Shown: piece by piece, positions 27,001 to 60,000 of the stretch
Layout: the number at the start of each line of letters is the position of its first letter
Numbering within the stretch: the stretch's first letter is position 1
Assembly: GCF_003704095.1 (NCBI RefSeq)
Contig: NW_020846005.1
Location: forward strand, 558,001 to 622,000
Length of the DNA stretch: 64,000 bases
Source: Pocillopora damicornis
Lineage: Eukaryota
Direction of reading: 5' to 3'
Program-made: the position numbers

Positions 27001-30000
27001 TTTGAACTGAATCAAGAGCACACTTAGTCAGTAACTCTTTTGTCGCTCGGATTACAAGATACCCTAAATTTTTCATCTCCCAGCTCAACGAATGTAAGAC
27101 GAAAACAAGCTAAGTCACGGTTTGTGGAAAAAGAATCTAGCAATTTTACGAACTCATTGCATGCAATCCGAGTTAATCTTCTCCATCCTTAAAATTCCTT
27201 TTTTCATTTTAGCTTATAGTAATCTAATTGGTGCTTTACTATCTCATTTAAGTGTCAATCAATTTTTTTTCTCATAGTTGGGGTTGAGGTATCCGCGTGA
27301 TGTTACGCGTGGTAGGAAATTGCTCAACTGCCGTGACATAACTTCTTTTCACCAACTGGCCACATAAGGAATCACCACTTGGAGTCATTGTGTGCCTTAT
27401 TCACACATTCCAAAGATTGTCCCAGATACTTGATAAAATAGGTGATAATTTTACCGATAAGTGGTTTGTCGTACAAGGATGAAAGATTTGAAATAAAAGT
27501 GTCCTGTGGATCATGTTTAATGGCTGTGAAACCTTTGTGCTCCCCCACACAAGGGAGTGCTACTCGTATTCCTCCCAAAGGTATTCACCAAGGTCGAGGT
27601 CCAGTAAGTTGTCTGAAAAAAATTAGAATAAAAGATGCATTCATATAAACTAAAAACAAAACAAAACAAATACAGCTTTTAGGATTTCACCATAAGCCTT
27701 TCGTGATAAGAGATCAACAAATTAATGTGCGATCACTTTCAAGCAACATTTCAATGAAAGTTCAATTTTTTTTTCGATTTTTGCTTGAGGGACCGTTTAA
27801 GGTTTGATTGGAAGTCAACAAGAGCGGATCCAATCCGCGACAACTAAGAGAGGAAGTGTTAAAAATGATAATACATATTGTTTACATTAACAATGAAAAC
27901 CGAATTATTGTTAGTAAACATGTTTCAAAACGGACTACTGTTATCTTTGTACACATCATTCAATTCCCGAACTCACGGATTCATAAATATTTGCATTGAA
28001 AATTTGGAAAAAAAGTTCAACAACAATTTACACTCCGTCACGATATTTGAAAATGACGGACGAGAACTGTAAAACTATCAGACCTCCCAGATTTTCGAGC
28101 TGATGACACTTATCCCCGGCCCCCGTCACAAATAATTGAGTGAAAACTTCAAGGTGCATATGTACCTTCATTATCAGAGAACGAGTCAAAGCAGAATCGT
28201 GGAAGATTTGCAGAGAGACTCCAACCATCTTCAAATCCTGGAAGGCTTGGAAGTAGCTCGTCTGGGTTAATTCTTTCCAAACCTTCCGGTGTGTTCTCGA
28301 GAATCTCAGTCAGACAGGAAATGTATACTGCTGCCAGTCTGATGGTCTCCGTTTTGGAGGGTTTCTTCTCCCCAGGAAAAAGTGGAATTAGATCCCTCAA
28401 CCTCTCAATGTGTGCATTAAGGGTTTGCACGCGGCTCCTCTCACGTGCGTTAGCCATTCGTCTTTGTCGACTGACTCCGGTCAAACGAGGTCCTCGCCTC
28501 CTTGTTTTCTTTTTTCCTTGAGTATTGTCAGGTTTAGCCGCTATAGTAGTGTCCATGGCTGACTGCTGTGCTTGGTTGAACTGCTTGTAACTGATGTGAG
28601 TTTAAACTAAGGCGTGGAGATCGTTGAACGAGTTACTTATCGCAGCATTCCAGGGCTTGGCTTGTCAGCTGGGTTTCCATTTTAAGGAGACAACAGAACG
28701 GAACTCATCTGACACGATTATATAAAGTCCAGAAACATAAACACATGATATTATACAAGATAAGGCTTACTATCGCACTTCTGAATAACGTGTGGGTATT
28801 TCGTGCTCAATGTACATTCTTTCGACCGCATTTTGATCCATCCCACGCACAACAGCATCGTAAACTTCCTTTAACTGTTTATTTTCTTTAGCTACTCTCA
28901 CATTAAATAACGCCCTTTTTCTCGATTAAAGTAAATCGTGAATATGTCCCATTATGATAATGTACTGATGATGTGTGACTCGTGCATTGCGTCGAAAGAA
29001 GACCGAACTCCCTCATGCTATAATTGAAAAACACTTAAAGTTTGTGGTTATTATTTACTTCAAATGTGGATTTTAGTTAGGTCAATATTTCTAGCTTAGT
29101 GTATTAAGGTTTGGAATCATTTACATGCTCACCGTACCTGTGTGTCATCGCTGCTATGAGCTCCAGCCTAAAAAACTTGTGGGTTGATATGACATGACGT
29201 CACGACAGCCGTTCACAACAAACGCTCTCATCGTGCAAATGACTCTTTGACCTTTCAAAGTTTATTGTTTTTGCTCTCTTTTCGTACTTATTTGTTTTTG
29301 CTCTCTTTTCGTACTTATTTGCTTTAAAAACATCACACAAATGAAAGGGATTTGTATGCGTCACGTAAATTTCCACTCTTGAAATTTTGCGGGTTGGTTT
29401 TAGTCTACTTCAGCCGAAGGAAACTTATCCCCATCCGCCTTGATGATACTAGGGCCTAGTAAATTCTCATTCATGCATACGTTTGGAAATTATTTTCATA
29501 TCAAACTATGCTGATACCGAAAGATCGGTTCTAGTTTGGAGACAGTCCGTTGGTGGTTTGCTTGTAGGCTTTACTGAAACGAGCACTCAAATCGTTTCCA
29601 TAGGTTGCCATTTTGGCACTCAGTCAATAAAAGTAAAGTCATTGCATGTTTTGGAAAAAAGCTCTGCAGCCACGAACAAGCTGTAGAACATTTTGTGAGC
29701 ATTTGTGTGATGAAAACATTTGTTTGATCTTTCCGTGTAACACGCTTTAAATTTGAACCTAACAGCTTTCGCCACAACGTTTTGATTTATCTCAGTTTAT
29801 CTTTCGGAAATGAACAATATCCTGCATCATTAATCTGAATGATCCTTTATGGGAGATGTGTTTAATTAAGATCGGTGAGTTTGTGATATTACAGGTAACC
29901 TGGGAACTCAGACAAGAGGAGCCAATACTACGTAAAACAGATTCCCAGATAGCTTGATTTCGCTTAAAGGTTACCTTGTGTACGCCTACAAAAACACTGA

Positions 30001-57000: not shown

Positions 57001-60000
57001 TTGTTTAACGAAAACTTCGCTATTGCTAGCTGTGTGAGCATACAAACAATTATCTGAACAGTTCACCACTCAAGGCTTCTTTACATAATTTAAATAGTTT
57101 TACAGCTTATGTGACCCAACAAAATTTCTTTCCCTACAACACAGATTCTCAATTTTTCCTTTTCCAAAATTCCGGATCAAAATTGTTGCTGTCCTGCACA
57201 ATCTCACATTTTTCCTGAATTGTTTTTCTCCGGGTCACAACTGATGCCTGTGATGCAACGTTAATGCAAAACTAAAAGATCGAAAGAGATGCAGAGAGGT
57301 GTTCGGCGGCTATTATGATCCAAATGCCGTTTAATGAAAGTTACCTATAACACTCCACAGGGCATCAGTTCAGTATTGTTTATAATCTAAATCAAATTTA
57401 CCTGACAGTAAACAAAAACATGTCAACGAACATATCAATTTATCTACCAGATTACAAGAAGTTGAATTGTTTGAAGTTAACTTGAATTTGAGTGTTTGAG
57501 ACAAACCGTAAGCTCACCCAAGAAATAATTCATTGATCTTAACTATGTCCTTAGGAAGCCTCACTTGTGACGATCACAGCACTAGCTAAAACCGGTTCAT
57601 GACATGAACGAAAGGAACGGAGATATTAGAAGTCGATATTTAATGAGGTATTGGCCTCAAACAGAGAAGCTTACAATTATCAAGAACCCAAACACAACGG
57701 CTTGGTGATTTTCAATGAGAATAGGTATTTCATGGCTCTAATAAACAATATGTTAATTGGGAGTTATTTCGAGCGATATTTCGCTTGTTAGGGGCGTGTT
57801 TTCAGGGGTAACGTTCAATAACTATATGATTGTAGCCGATAACCTTGCGTTCCTTGACACAAAAACATTGCGCAAGTTTTCCAACTTTTGTTAGCCAGTT
57901 TCGCCGACAGAATGAGGTTCATTTTGGCTTCCCTTTCATGTAAAGGTGCAAAAATAATTTTAGAGCAAGTTTGAATGCAGAATTCTTCAGTGAAAACAAG
58001 GCACCCACGCTAACTCTTAGATCTATATTTTTATTTGACAATAATGCGCCTGCGCAAACATATTACTGGGTAACACCCAAATATCAATGATTTTTGTGCT
58101 TGAATATCAAGCAGAAATATTTCAATATTTTTAGCATATCGGTACCAGTCAAACTGTGTAATTCTAACAGCAATATCTATTAAGTAAGTAAATAAAGTAT
58201 TGCCTATGTGCCCTCGAAATTCATGCCATGCATAAATTTACAACAACTTGACCGAAGTAATTAATTGACATTACATTAATTTGCACCCAGTGATTCCTCA
58301 TTGTGAGGATAAAACGTTCTGTGTCACAAACATTCACTAAAACTCTTGCTATGAAATAGAAAATCAGTCCCATCAGTGATCAAGTTTGGACGCATCGTTA
58401 TTTTGGAAAGGCGTACGACTCAAAAAGACAATGGCGCACAATCTGAAAGAAAAGGAGAGTTCAATGTCAGCTCATCAATCATAAAAATTGATAAACATTG
58501 GGAGACAATGAATCACCGGAGTTCGACAAAAGCCTCAGTCTAGGAGATTGTGGCTTCGTTAAGTTTATCTGCTCGCAACAAGAAATTTTAAAGATCTACT
58601 AATTAACACTAGGCAAGATCAATGATTACGATATGTCGCTTTGTGATTACTTCACGACACGGTTCGCCTCTCTCAGAGGGAAGCCAAAATGCCGACTTCG
58701 GCAAAATTGATTTTGTCCACGCTATTTCTTGCAGATATTTCCTCACTAGAGAACGCTCAATACACCATAATTTCATACAAGAAAAGAATCAATTTGTTAT
58801 CAGCCCAAAAAACAATCTGATAAGTTGCACCTTACGGCGCACAATAGGAGAGTACTGATCCTGTCAGACAAAATGCATAAAGGTGAAGGCGGAATAAATA
58901 CTGTTTGGACAACCTTTAGCTCCTTCGCCCGCAAACTAAGCTTTTTCGGCTCCAGTTCACTAATTGGGATCTTATTTAAATGGGAAACATTATGCATGGT
59001 GTCTGATGTCGGTATATTACCTAAGGTAGAGTTATTTCTCCTGAAAAAGCATAACCTGGAGCCAGGGGTTCTCTTAATATTTTGTGAAACTAGACGAAGA
59101 TTACCGTTCACGATGTAAAACCTTAAAGTCATTAACAAGGCCTTTAAAAATGGATTGTTCTTTAAACGTCAATTTAAAAAGTCACTGGCTTACTTAGAAG
59201 GATTATGCCATTCCAACTGATTTGCATACACACCCTAAAACCTAACAGCCTACAACTCTCATTCCCTCCCATTTCTTTCAGCCGGTAACACCAACCTTCC
59301 AAATTAAACAGAGGGCTGTCATCTAAGCTATCCAAAGAGTCAATATCGAACATTTCAAGCTCAGCCTGCCACTGATCAGCAGAATCCAACATTTTGGTGA
59401 GCTCTGTGATGTAATCTACAGCTAACCATATCACTTCAGTCTTAGAAGGTTCCTTCTCCTGCGGCGGAAGAGGAATCATATGTCGTAATATCTGGATATT
59501 CATGTTTAAAATTTCAACCCGGCGTCTTTCACGTGCATTCGCCACCCGGCGCTGCTTGCTGACGCCTGTAAGACGTGGTCCACGTCGCCGGGGTTTCTTC
59601 TTGTGCTGCGGAATAACTTTTCCAATGGGTGCGACGTCCATTTCGCGGATGTGGCAGTGTATAACTTGTTTATCGACTGACACGATCGTATTATATCAAC
59701 ATATTTGACCAAAGGAGTGAAGCCACGCGCCGTCATGCCTTTTGAGTCTTTTGTAATTGCACAAAGGTATCATCAGTTCTATGTTTTAGAATATCGTACG
59801 TCAGTAGTGAGTCCCCTGTGGAGTTTGAGGGAACCTTGGATTTTTGTCCGAGCGACGTGTTTTTGTGATGCGTGAAATTACATTGTATTCCACTTTGTGT
59901 TACATGAGCAGATATGAAGAGTTCGTCATTAACTGTATCCATATTACTTTTCTCTGCATAGTTCAATCATTTTACGACACAGATCGTATCAAAAACTCCC

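What the first reader, a model, noticed from the sequence alone, without database searches (positions are those of the whole stretch)
28300..59540. Same DNA-reading helix, remodelled dimerisation surface: three or four HLH subtypes in one array
Seen: the helix-1 AF of group A bHLHs (N.AF..LR) survives only in copy 4. The others have HI, GI, HI, YI, EI, NI and NI. Helix 2 sorts the copies into IETVRLA (4), T(E/D)TIRLA (1, 2), TE(V/I)IW(L/M)A (3, 6, 7, 8; Arg to Trp) and FDVIVGA (5). The loop has KP(S/T)K-like sequence instead of KLSK. Known: these positions build the four-helix bundle. Inference: the paralogs may differ in partner choice (E-protein, Twist or each other), giving a combinatorial dimer code on similar E-boxes. 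The subtypes also record a duplication history with copy 4 as ancestral-like, a 1/2 pair and a Trp clade.
Basis: partly seen in the sequence, partly recalled or inferred. Interest (0 to 1): 0.7.

Follow-up and report, generated by a model that had tools for sequence, protein, structure and literature searches.

The report
Coral PaTH bHLH gene cluster beside Twist
This is a stony coral's copy of a known anthozoan cluster of muscle-linked bHLH transcription-factor genes next to Twist, and its eight copies fall into old, conserved subtypes that differ at the dimer-forming helices but keep the same DNA-contact residues.

Summary
Eight bHLH genes lie at 28.1-59.6 kb. Seven are intact, and copy 7 has an in-frame TAA. 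A Twist gene lies at 9.4 kb.

The array is the pocilloporid-coral counterpart of the published "Cni-PaTH" cluster of Nematostella (nem7/24/64 with paraxis and twist; Cole et al. 2023).

The subtypes are ancient orthogroups, not recent copies. Each has orthologues in other stony corals, and several have them in sea anemones. The diagnostic residues are fixed within groups: Ile20 in 132 of 132 derived domains and helix-2 Trp in 80 of 80.

Trees built with and without those columns give three results:
- The copy-4 type (Ala-Phe, Arg) is a basal grade.
- All "x-Ile" types form one clade (100/99).
- The Trp types plus copy 5 form one clade (98-99/94).

A copy 1+2 clade and a Trp clade without copy 5 do not appear in the best tree. 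AU tests do not reject either (p 0.19 and 0.50).

The "dimer code" remains untested inference. Nematostella genetics point to one common E-protein partner. The result is a new member of a known kind, of moderate interest.

The parts
9402..9821 (+). Twist gene (139 aa ORF) with the bHLH and the C-terminal WR motif. It flanks the cluster.
   Evidence: ORF. tblastn locus. Pfam HLH E 3.6e-18. The tail [16 protein letters not shown] is read; calling it the Twist WR motif is from recall.
28166..28556 (-). Copy 1, exon 1 (HI / TETIRLA). The unspliced ORF runs on to 28149.
   Evidence: The phase-1 donor G|GTACA after ..SDNE is shown. It is 98% identical to P0277 and 89% to Oculina ACROYT_G026812.
27560..27612 (-). 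Copy 1, small 3' exon encoding (D)NLLDLDLGEYLWEEYE and the stop codon.
   Evidence: tblastn of Desmophyllum P0286 residues 131-147 gives 88% identity, E 1.5e-5. Translation. Motif scan.
33925..34314 (-). Copy 2 (GI / TDTIRLA), 129 aa ORF. A likely donor G|GTAAG follows ..VESE.
   Evidence: It is 94% identical to Stylophora P0234.
33550..33623 (-). Copy 2, candidate 3' exon encoding (E)LTAFFWKDDELSGSDGGGLSSVF and the stop codon.
   Evidence: An 11-residue tblastn match to the tail of Stylophora P0234 (E 0.013). The full tail is read.
42910..43270 (+). Copy 3, exon 1 (HI / TEVIWMA).
   Evidence: It is 100% identical to residues 1-120 of Pocillopora damicornis pdam_00004917 (P0227).
43366..43446 (+). 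Copy 3, exon 2 (VSDIFGLNDCSAVSELNLDAYELLFLT).
   Evidence: 100% identical to P0227 residues 121-147. Splice sites read.
43582..43610 (+). Copy 3, exon 3 encoding (D)SEGSLDEN and the stop codon.
   Evidence: The motif was found in frame at 43584-43607. It matches the end of P0227.
46961..47383 (-). Copy 4 (AF / IETVRLA), 140 aa from the Met used by the orthologues. The ORF extends to 47440. This is the ancestral-like type and the copy most like Paraxis and Twist.
   Evidence: Stylophora P0003 is 86% identical. The best window match of cnidarian Paraxis P0113 and P0325 is here, at 53-55% identity. Closest PDB chain is TWIST1 8osb_B, E 1.1e-11.
49832..50191 (-). Copy 5 (YI / FDVIVGA; loop RVTK), 119 aa.
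   Evidence: Its orthogroup of 16 distinct domains all carry YI and FD/EVI(I/V)GA.
53029..53442 (+). Copy 6 (EI / TEVIWLA), 137 aa from MADELEAA. The ORF begins at 52807.
   Evidence: P0232 (137 aa) and Stylophora P0237 start at this Met.
56437..56739 (-). Copy 7 (NI / TEIIWMA), a likely pseudogene with an in-frame TAA at 56584-56586.
   Evidence: It has a long terminal branch, 1.0-1.4, against 0-0.19 for c8.
59174..59641 (-). Copy 8 (NI / TEVIWLA), 155 aa ORF. A possible donor G|GTTGG follows ..FNLE, so the ORF tail may be intron read-through.
   Evidence: Orthologues diverge from one another after ..FEG.

Best explanation
The span holds the stony-coral (Pocillopora-type) counterpart of the anthozoan "Cni-PaTH" cluster. 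This is a family of orphan group-A bHLH genes related to Paraxis, Twist and Hand. It arose by old tandem duplications next to Twist.

**Shown here**
- There are eight linked paralogues.
- They fall into at least six conserved orthogroups: c1, c2, c3, c4, c5 and c6, plus c7/c8.
- The c1/2-like, c6-like and c8-like types also occur in Nematostella, so those splits predate the coral/sea-anemone divergence.
- The base-contacting residues of the basic region are identical in all intact copies.
- The differences sit in the HLH and are fixed group by group.

**Order of change implied by the trees**
1. The Paraxis-like c4 state has Ala19-Phe20 in helix 1 and IETVRLA in helix 2.
2. One change produced x19-Ile20 with T-x-T-I-R-L-A (c1 and c2 types).
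3. Arg then changed to Trp in helix 2 (c3, c6, c7, c8 types).
4. In the c5 type that column holds Ile or Val and the next residue is Gly.

**Inferred mechanism**
- Each protein is a tissue-restricted class-II bHLH. It binds E-boxes as a heterodimer with the single E-protein and specifies particular muscle or mesodermal cell types, as nem64 and nem7/24 do in Nematostella.
- Helical periodicity places position 19 on a second hydrophobic stripe of helix 1 (19-23-26). It places the Arg/Trp column on the rim of the helix-2 core stripe. The substitutions therefore most likely repack and retune the dimer interface in affinity, stability or partner bias. They are unlikely to abolish dimerisation.
- All copies replace the Thr just after the basic region with Val. 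In Twist-family proteins that Thr is phosphorylated to shift dimer choice. Any partner bias here would therefore be fixed in the paralogue rather than switched by phosphorylation.
For: **Identity and linkage**
- Nine bHLH loci including Twist.
- c3 is 100% identical to P. damicornis pdam_00004917 over exons 1-2. c4 is 86% identical to Stylophora "transcription factor 15-like".

**Published frame**
- nem7, nem24 and nem64 are clustered with paraxis and twist on Nematostella chromosome 2 and are named Cni-PaTH. nem64 knockout loses the tentacle retractor muscle. e-protein knockout loses the fast-muscle markers (PMC10060217, passages).
- The single medusozoan orthologue, cpath, is expressed in striated muscle (PMC11844373, passages).

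**Family tree**
- Tree 1 has 142 rows and 73 columns. The family is monophyletic (98/86), the x-Ile clade has 67 rows (100/99), and the Trp+c5 clade has 43 rows (99/94).
- Tree 2 omits the 9 diagnostic columns and has 98 rows and 65 columns. It gives the x-Ile clade 100/99, Trp+c5 98/94, c1 100/99, c2 100/96, c3 100/96 and c5 100/97. The c4 type is basal.

**Fixation of the diagnostic residues**
- Ile20 in 132 of 132 derived distinct domains.
- Trp in 80 of 80 domains of the Trp groups.
- Position 19: His 16/16 (c1), Tyr 16/16 (c5), Glu 25/29 (c6), Asn 13/13 (c8).

**Conserved synteny**
- A Porites evermanni fused gene model joins a c5-type and a c4-type domain in the window's order.
- Oculina locus tags G026812 (c1 type) and G026814 (c3 type) share a contig with a c4 type.
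- Desmophyllum tags 016227 (c1) and 016230 (c4) share a contig.
- Stylophora c2, c4 and c6 types share one contig.

**Nematostella members**
- P0043, P0428 and P0121 list the same 22,031,953-base contig as Nematostella transcription factor 15.

**Age of the copies**
- They are 46-71% identical in the domain.
- They share no DNA repeat of 60 nt or more.

**Basic region and the Thr-to-Val change**
- The Twist-family Thr/Ser switch is described in PMC2744367 (passages).
Against: - No expression, binding or dimer data exist for these coral genes. The muscle role is carried over from Nematostella.
- I could not map nem7, nem24 and nem64 onto my Nematostella proteins.
- The alignable region has only 65-73 columns. 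The bootstrap of tree 1 had not settled, many forks are open, and the root rests on one Twist sequence.
- Paraxis, part of the Nematostella cluster, is not in this window.
- The structural placement of positions 19 and 20 and of the Trp column comes from helical periodicity and conservation. No model or solved complex was used.
- A 2025 preprint reports that the two Nematostella retractor muscles use largely different regulatory elements. This argues against a simple swap of paralogues on shared sites (10.1101/2025.07.01.662323, passages).
- I found no c4-type protein from Nematostella. Whether that type predates the coral/anemone split is therefore open.
Confidence: 0.72

Rival explanations
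1. **Neutral or compensatory repacking.** Under this reading the HLH differences are historical accidents of core repacking. A larger residue at 19 goes with a smaller one at 20, and Trp fills space on the rim. Partner choice is unaffected. All subtypes pair with the E-protein alike, and their biological difference lies wholly in where and when each gene is expressed.
For: - Core hydrophobic positions are kept in all intact copies: L/I16, I/F20, L23, P28 and Y-I-x-x-L of helix 2.
- Nematostella genetics fit one common E-protein partner with paralogues differing by cell type (PMC10060217).
- Ile, Leu, Tyr or Met at position 20 occurs in 23 of the 190 domains filtered as outside the family. Three of the four Ile are family members the filter missed, so position 20 tolerates other hydrophobic residues.
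Against: - Position 19 is Ala in 180 of 190 other group-A domains. Here it is a different residue in each orthogroup, and each is fixed: His 16/16, Tyr 16/16, Asn 13/13, Glu 25/29. Long-term fixation of different states suggests each state matters.
- Trp at the helix-2 column was seen in no bHLH outside the family in my set.
Confidence: 0.3
2. **The reader's combinatorial dimer code.** Under this reading the subtypes prefer different partners, namely the E-protein, Twist or one another. Co-expressed paralogues then form distinct dimers on similar E-boxes.
For: - Twist-family proteins do form homodimers and non-E-protein heterodimers with distinct functions. Charge changes in helix 1 shift their partner affinities (PMC2744367, passages).
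- The cluster genes sit beside Twist.
- nem7 and nem24 are co-expressed in one Nematostella muscle (PMC10060217).
- Group-specific residues lie at helix positions that flank the core (placement inferred).
Against: - There are no interaction data for any member.
- The e-protein knockout phenotype in Nematostella is explained by a common partner.
- The phospho-switch residues that mediate dimer choice in the Twist family are absent here: Val13 in 7 of 7 intact copies.
Confidence: 0.2
3. **Cofactor docking.** Under this reading the helix-2 Trp, and perhaps residue 19, lies on an outer face. It creates a docking site for a non-bHLH cofactor and does not change the bHLH partner. TAL1 uses its bHLH surface in this way to hold LMO2.
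For: - On a helical wheel the Arg/Trp column lies about 90 degrees from the centre of the core stripe, next to the polar face (inference).
- c8's Trp aligns with the Arg of TAL1 "eilrla" in chain 2ypa_A. That 2ypa is the complex with LMO2, and that LMO2 docks on TAL1's bHLH, are from recall; no call shows either.
- An exposed Trp conserved in 80 of 80 domains is typical of a binding hot spot.
Against: - No candidate cofactor is known.
- No structure or model was examined here.
- The linked changes at core positions (I to T at the first helix-2 position, V to I, F to I) point to the bundle itself.
Confidence: 0.1
4. **Recent coral-specific expansion.** Under this reading the array is a recent expansion under relaxed selection, and the motif differences are drift on the way to pseudogenes.
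For: - One copy (c7) carries a stop codon and changes at invariant sites.
- Tandem bHLH duplications are common in Nematostella (PMC1828162, section 7).
Against: - Each intact copy has close orthologues in other coral families, and three types occur in Nematostella.
- The copies are only 46-71% identical to one another.
- They share no repeated DNA of 60 nt or more.
- The diagnostic residues are fixed within groups.
Confidence: 0.02

Closest known systems
Cni-PaTH genes of Nematostella vectensis (nem7, nem24, nem64; Cole et al. 2023, PMC10060217)
   Same: - Both are orphan group-A bHLH genes of anthozoans that branch with Paraxis, Twist and Hand.
- Both are tandemly clustered next to twist.
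- Nematostella proteins P0043, P0428, P0050 and P0121 nest inside the window's subtypes. They show the same x-Ile and Trp motifs.
   Different: - The window has eight copies, seven intact, against the three named in the paper's main text. I found four Nematostella members.
- The coral has c3, c4 and c5 types for which I found no Nematostella counterpart.
- Paraxis is not inside this 64-kb window.
- The paper's main text calls the paralogue group sea-anemone-specific in one place and anthozoan-specific in another. The orthogroups here are shared by corals and anemones.
- I could not match the names nem7, nem24 and nem64 to accessions because the supplements are closed.
Paraxis (TCF15) / Scleraxis
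   Same: - Both share the motif R-L-T-G-(V/L)-S-K-Q-R just before the basic region.
- c4 is the window's best match to cnidarian Paraxis, at 53-55% identity.
- NCBI labels the Stylophora c4 orthologue "transcription factor 15-like".
   Different: - A true Paraxis exists separately in cnidarians. It is the P0113 group, which includes Nematostella transcription factor 15 and matches vertebrate TCF15 at about 1e-35. It forms its own clade.
- Paraxis keeps Thr13 and Ser15, the loop KLSK and a C-terminal CTFCL motif. None of these is present in the cluster copies.
Twist
   Same: - It is a linked neighbour in the window.
- TWIST1 (8osb_B) is the closest solved chain to c4, at E 1.1e-11.
   Different: - Domain identity to the window's Twist is only 33-55%.
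- The cluster copies have no WR motif.
- Twist lacks the RLTGVSKQR extension.
Vertebrate myogenic factors (MyoD, Myf5, Myf6, myogenin)
   Same: This is an analogy only. Both are paralogous class-II bHLH genes that specify muscle with an E-protein partner. Cole et al. draw the parallel.
   Different: They are not homologous as a family. MyoD and Myf5 are only weak PDB matches to c4, at E 1.6e-6 to 1e-5. Cole et al. state that cnidarians have no MRF orthologues.

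Membership tests
bHLH superfamily (Pfam PF00010) | HLH domain scoring above the curated cut-off | tested here: met
   7 of 7 intact copies score 47.5-70.5 bits against a cut-off of 20.7.
bHLH superfamily (Pfam PF00010) | Intact basic region with Glu9 and Arg10/Arg12, meaning a DNA-binding protein and not an Id-like one | tested here: met
   Q1, R2, A5, N6, R8, E9, R10, R12 and V13 are invariant in the 7 intact copies. 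c7 has R2 to G and V13 to A.
Cni-PaTH (Cole et al. 2023) | Anthozoan orphan group-A bHLH branching with Paraxis, Twist and Hand and not inside a bilaterian family | tested here: met
   The family is monophyletic (98/86) and separate from the Paraxis-like and Mesp-like clades. It is the same without the diagnostic columns. Hand was not in my set.
Cni-PaTH (Cole et al. 2023) | Physical clustering with twist and paraxis | tested here: inconclusive
   Twist lies 18 kb from copy 1. No Paraxis is in the window. In several unnamed assemblies a Paraxis-like protein and cluster members list the same longest-contig length. That suggests linkage but does not show it.
Cni-PaTH (Cole et al. 2023) | Orthology to nem7, nem24 or nem64 | tested here: inconclusive
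   Four Nematostella proteins nest within the subtypes. Three of them list the 22,031,953-base contig that also holds Nematostella transcription factor 15. The names could not be matched to accessions because the supplements are closed.
Cni-PaTH (Cole et al. 2023) | Muscle-specific expression and requirement | not testable with these tools
Twist family in the sense of Firulli (Twist, Hand, Paraxis, Scleraxis) | Conserved phosphoregulated Thr and Ser just C-terminal to the basic domain | tested here: not met
   The feature is described in PMC2744367. Position 13 is Val in 7 of 7 intact copies. Position 15 is T, V, A, A, I, N, I in c1-c6 and c8. The Paraxis-like outgroup keeps T-H-S.
Paraxis / Scleraxis | Membership of the Paraxis orthogroup and the C-terminal CTFCL motif | tested here: not met
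   The Paraxis-like sequences form a separate clade. The tail of P0325 finds only a chance match, E 4.3, elsewhere in the window.
FIGLA, Atonal, Neurogenin, PTF1A (names given by automatic annotation to the orthologues) | Closer relation to that family than to other families | tested here: not met
   Orthologues of one cluster carry six different family names. In the representative search, sequences of those kinds score far below family members. I did not build a dedicated tree with named references.

The most novel reading that the evidence does not exclude
The anthozoan PaTH cluster may have replaced the phosphorylation switch that sets dimer choice in Twist-family proteins with a hard-wired one. 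The Thr after the basic region was lost, with Val13 in every copy. Each old paralogue then fixed its own residue at helix-1 position 19 (His, Gly, Tyr, Glu or Asn) and, in one lineage, a Trp on helix 2. On this reading the subtypes have distinct, genetically encoded partner or cofactor preferences. Muscle and mesodermal cell types in corals would then be specified by which paralogue dimers can form, not only by which paralogue is expressed.
Probability: 0.15. Interest if true: 0.65.

Novelty: new member of a known kind. Interest (0 to 1): 0.42.

Why it matters
**Age of the expansion.** The published picture rests on three Nematostella genes. The window shows that a reef-building coral keeps a larger, ordered version of the same cluster beside Twist. 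It also shows that the paralogue groups are older than the coral/sea-anemone split. [quoted passage not shown]

**A concrete test set.** Four sequence states of the dimerisation helices were each held fixed over long periods. They give a small, well-defined set of natural variants: c4, c1/c2, the Trp types and c5. These can be used to ask whether bHLH paralogues diverge only in expression or also in partner choice.

**Limits.** If the answer is expression only, the finding is ordinary comparative genomics. I found no statement of the helix-1 and helix-2 pattern in print. The supplements of Cole et al. 2023 that may show it are closed.

Tried and rejected
- **Recent expansion or drift.** Rejected by the orthologue evidence and by the lack of shared DNA repeats.
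- **Gyoja 2012 families.** I looked for a link to pearl, amber and peridot. The paper itself is not held. The papers that cite it gave nothing that ties those families to this cluster, so the question stays open.
- **Paraxis in the window.** None was found.
- **Other domains in the window.** I sent 10 of the 20 stop-to-stop frames of at least 110 aa to Pfam. The ten not sent were the bHLH and Twist frames and frames overlapping them. Only a lipoxygenase fragment matched.
- **Block duplication.** The strand pattern (-,-,+)(-,-,+)(-,-) suggested duplication of a three-gene unit. The tree does not pair c1/c4/c7, c2/c5/c8 or c3/c6 in that way, so I dropped the idea.
- **Motif filter for non-family domains.** The filter misfiled three family members. 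I give the raw counts and say so.
- **Structure and complex prediction.** I did not run structure prediction, fold search or complex prediction. Any bHLH pair would be likely to pass by likeness to solved dimers, and the tools return no residue contacts.
- **Spliced models.** Searches used the single-exon ORFs, and exons were mapped one by one.
- **DNA-level synteny.** I could not check it in other corals.

Full report
**What is there.** The window has no N. The ORF list gave 14 ORFs of at least 80 aa in 27000-61000, and seven of them are bHLH ORFs. tblastn with those seven found nine bHLH loci, each hit by all seven queries. Eight lie in the finding's span. The ninth, at 9402-9821 (+), is a 139-aa Twist with its C-terminal WR motif (the motif's name is recalled). 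Pfam HLH is matched by all 8 proteins sent, with E from 1e-19 to 1.5e-12.

The copies are as follows.

| Copy | Coordinates | Strand |
|---|---|---|
| c1 | 28149-28556 | - |
| c2 | 33925-34314 | - |
| c3 | 42910-43275 | + |
| c4 | 46961-47440 | - |
| c5 | 49832-50191 | - |
| c6 | 52807-53442 | + |
| c7 | about 56437-56739 | - |
| c8 | 59174-59641 | - |

Copy 7 has an in-frame TAA at 56584-56586 in place of the conserved Leu of helix 1. It also has changes at otherwise invariant sites.

**The observation.** The helix-1 dipeptides are HI, GI, HI, AF, YI, EI, NI and NI for copies 1-8. The helix-2 heptads are TETIRLA, TDTIRLA, TEVIWMA, IETVRLA, FDVIVGA, TEVIWLA, TEIIWMA and TEVIWLA. The loop ends in P(S/T)K in seven of eight copies.

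In the alignment of the seven intact copies, the basic-region positions Q1, R2, A5, N6, R8, E9, R10, R12 and V13 (numbered with Glu at 9) are invariant. Positions 3, 4, 7 and 11 vary. "Same DNA-reading helix" therefore holds for the contact residues, with some room for fine differences.

The departures are unusual for the superfamily. A motif filter placed 190 distinct group-A domains of my hit set outside the family. Among them, position 19 is Ala in 180, position 20 is Phe in 167, and the helix-2 column is Arg, Lys or Gln in 182. The one Trp and three of the four Ile in that set were family members the filter had missed.

**What it is.** The organism is a pocilloporid coral.
- c3 is 100% identical over its first two exons to Pocillopora damicornis pdam_00004917.
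- c4 is 97-98% identical to unnamed records and 86% to a Stylophora pistillata protein.

Automatic annotation gives the orthologues six different family names: TCF15-like, PTF1A-like, Atoh1, neurogenin-like, FIGLA-like and scleraxis. That spread is the mark of an orphan family.

The literature supplies the frame. Cole et al. 2023 (PMC10060217; passages read) describe the following.
- nem7, nem24 and nem64 are orphan group-A bHLH genes, clustered with paraxis and twist on Nematostella chromosome 2.
- They branch with Paraxis, Twist and Hand and are named Cni-PaTH.
- They are expressed in distinct retractor muscles. nem64 is required for the tentacle retractor, and e-protein is required for all fast muscle.

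The term Cni-PaTH occurs in that paper only. Simionato et al. 2007 had already noted physical clusters of orphan bHLH genes in Nematostella (PMC1828162, section 7). In Aurelia the single orthologue, cpath, marks striated muscle (PMC11844373, passages). The window is the coral counterpart of this cluster.

**Relatives and the nearest named family.** A full scan of representatives with c1 gave 4676 hits at E up to 1e-3 and 86 at up to 1e-10. The motif R-L-T-G-(V/L)-S-K-Q-R just before the basic region is shared with four other groups:
- Paraxis/Scleraxis-like sequences;
- Mesp-like sequences;
- a hydrozoan group that includes a Hydractinia protein;
- a further unnamed group.

A true Paraxis exists separately in cnidarians. 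The P0113 group includes Nematostella "transcription factor 15" and matches vertebrate TCF15 at about 1e-35. It is not in this window. Its best window match is c4, at 53-55% identity, and its CTFCL tail is absent. c4 is also the copy closest to the window's Twist, at 55% against 33-48% for the others. Its nearest solved chain is TWIST1, at E 1.1e-11. For c8 the best PDB match is weaker, at 8e-7 to TAL1.

**The tree test.** I built two trees.
- **Tree 1** (IQ-TREE, LG+C20, 142 rows by 73 columns, rooted on the window's Twist; the bootstrap had not settled). The family is one clade (98/86). c4-type sequences form a basal grade. Every type with x-Ile in helix 1 falls in one clade of 67 rows (100/99). 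Inside it the Trp types plus the c5 type form a clade of 43 rows (99/94).
- **Tree 2** guards against circularity by removing the nine diagnostic columns. I thinned 243 rows to 100 at 90% identity, keeping window and named rows, and dropped two very long rows (P0194, P0163). This left 98 rows by 65 columns. The result is the same: x-Ile clade 100/99, Trp+c5 98/94, c1 group 100/99, c2 group 100/96, c3 group 100/96, c5 group 100/97, with c5, c6, c7 and c8 groups together at 96/82.

- Holding the c1 and c2 groups together costs 15.9 log-likelihood units (p-AU 0.186).
- Holding all 35 Trp rows together without c5 costs nothing (p-AU 0.495).

**Fixation within groups.** I assigned 243 rows to tree-defined groups by their non-diagnostic columns and counted distinct domains.

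| Group | Position 19/20 | Helix-2 column |
|---|---|---|
| c4 type (39 domains) | AF 26, AL 11, AY 1, LL 1 | Arg 37, Lys 2 |
| All derived groups | Ile20 in 132 of 132 | see rows below |
| c1 | His19 in 16/16 | Arg 16/16 |
| c2 | Gly, Cys or Thr at 19 (5 domains) | Arg 5/5 |
| c3 | His 15, Arg 8, Tyr 3 | Trp |
| c5 | Tyr19 in 16/16 | Ile or Val, followed by Gly |
| c6 | Glu19 in 25/29 | Trp |
| c8 | Asn19 in 13/13 | Trp |
| All Trp groups | varies by group | Trp in 80 of 80 |
| Four outgroup clades | Ala19 in 35 of 35 | Arg in most; a few Lys, Gln or Cys |

The AF/Arg state is therefore ancestral, and "copy 4 as ancestral-like" stands.

**Age and synteny.** Nematostella has at least four members.

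| Protein | Helix 1 / helix 2 |
|---|---|
| P0043 | NI / TETIRIA |
| P0428 | YI / TETVHLA |
| P0050 | NI / TEIIWMA |
| P0121 | RI / TDIIWMA |

Three of them list the same 22,031,953-base contig as Nematostella transcription factor 15. Exaiptasia has a c1/2-like member. The x-Ile step, the Trp step and the c6/c8 split therefore predate the coral/anemone divergence.

Order is conserved in corals.
- A fused Porites evermanni model joins a c5-type and a c4-type domain in the window's order.
- Oculina tags G026812 (c1) and G026814 (c3) share a contig with a c4 type.
- Desmophyllum tags 016227 (c1) and 016230 (c4) share a contig.
- Stylophora c2, c4 and c6 types share one contig.

The window copies are 46-71% identical in the domain. 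They share no DNA repeat of 60 nt or more.

**How it most likely works.** Three things are shown: intact basic regions, kept core hydrophobic positions, and group-fixed changes in the HLH. The rest is inferred.

These are class-II bHLH factors that bind E-boxes as heterodimers with the E-protein and specify muscle or mesodermal cell types. That function is carried over from Nematostella.

Helical periodicity gives the placement of the changed residues. Positions 16, 20, 23 and 27 form the core stripe of helix 1. Positions 19, 23 and 26 form a second stripe, which explains why Ala19 is so constant elsewhere. The Arg/Trp column lies on the rim of the helix-2 core stripe. A larger residue at 19 with a smaller one at 20, together with linked changes at the first and fourth helix-2 positions, looks like stepwise repacking of the bundle. 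This placement is my inference. I computed no model.

The Thr that follows the basic region in Twist, Hand, Paraxis and Scleraxis is phosphorylated to shift their dimer choice (PMC2744367, passages). It is Val in all seven intact copies. Any partner bias would thus be fixed in each paralogue.

Whether such a bias exists is open. The Nematostella data fit one common partner. A 2025 preprint finds that the two retractor muscles use largely different regulatory elements (10.1101/2025.07.01.662323, passages).

**Gene structure.** c1, c2 and c3 have a phase-1 intron just after their C-terminal ..E/A-G, followed by short exons that encode acidic, aromatic tails.
- c1: 27560-27612.
- c2: candidate exon at 33550-33623.
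- c3: 43366-43446 and 43582-43610.

c6 and c8 have a like donor at the matching place, and c4 and c5 have none. The ORF ends are therefore not all true protein ends. I mapped exons one at a time and did not join them. All searches used the single-exon ORFs.

**What stayed unchecked.**
- The supplements of Cole et al. 2023 (their PaTH tree and alignment) are closed. They may already show coral orthologues and these motifs.
- Gyoja et al. 2012 on Acropora bHLH genes is not held.
Synteny therefore rests on locus tags, one fused model and equal contig lengths.
- No E-protein sequence was available, so I ran no complex or structure prediction.

**Verdict.** The subtypes are real and old. The array is a new member of a known kind. 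The dimer-code idea is a fair but untested hypothesis.

Noticed in passing
window 9402-9821 (+): A complete Twist gene of 139 aa, with bHLH and WR motif, lies 18 kb from copy 1. In Nematostella twist is likewise linked to the PaTH genes. Its Thr13 is kept, but the Ser two residues on is Ala.
   Followed up: partly
window 1881-2402 (+): An open frame matches the C-terminal part of Pfam Lipoxygenase (E 9e-8, profile positions 523-569 of 673). It is probably one exon of a lipoxygenase gene at the window's left end.
   Followed up: no
window 27560-27612 (-), 33550-33623 (-), 43366-43446 (+), 43582-43610 (+): Copies 1-3 have small 3' exons after a phase-1 intron. They encode acidic, aromatic tails such as DNLLDLDLGEYLWEEYE that are conserved in other corals. 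These may be activation motifs. Copies 6 and 8 have a matching donor site, but I found no downstream exon for them.
   Followed up: partly
window 56437-56739 (-): Copy 7 is a likely pseudogene. It has TAA in place of Leu23 and changes at R2, V13 and the LTG motif. Its nearest relative outside the window is an intact 101-aa protein (P0092), so the type exists intact elsewhere.
   Followed up: partly
window 28149-59641: All seven intact copies have Val where Twist, Hand, Paraxis and Scleraxis have the phosphoregulated Thr after the basic region. The family has therefore lost that switch.
   Followed up: partly
window 28149-59641: The strand order of the eight copies is -,-,+,-,-,+,-,-. It looks like a repeated three-gene unit, but the tree does not support block duplication.
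   Followed up: yes
window 33893-34336 (+) and 58800-59132 (-), 58873-59118 (+): Long ORFs lie antisense to copy 2 and next to copy 8. The two frames I sent to Pfam (33779-34336 + and 58771-59118 +) have no match. The minus-strand ORF at 58800-59132 was not sent. I take all of them for chance open frames.
   Followed up: partly
proteins P0224/P0225, P0222/P0299/P0429, P0110/P0112/P0120 (no locus fetched): In unnamed assemblies, c4-like, Trp-like, c1-like and Paraxis-like proteins list identical longest-contig lengths. This hints that the cluster and its link to Paraxis are widely conserved. I could not check it at DNA level.
   Followed up: no
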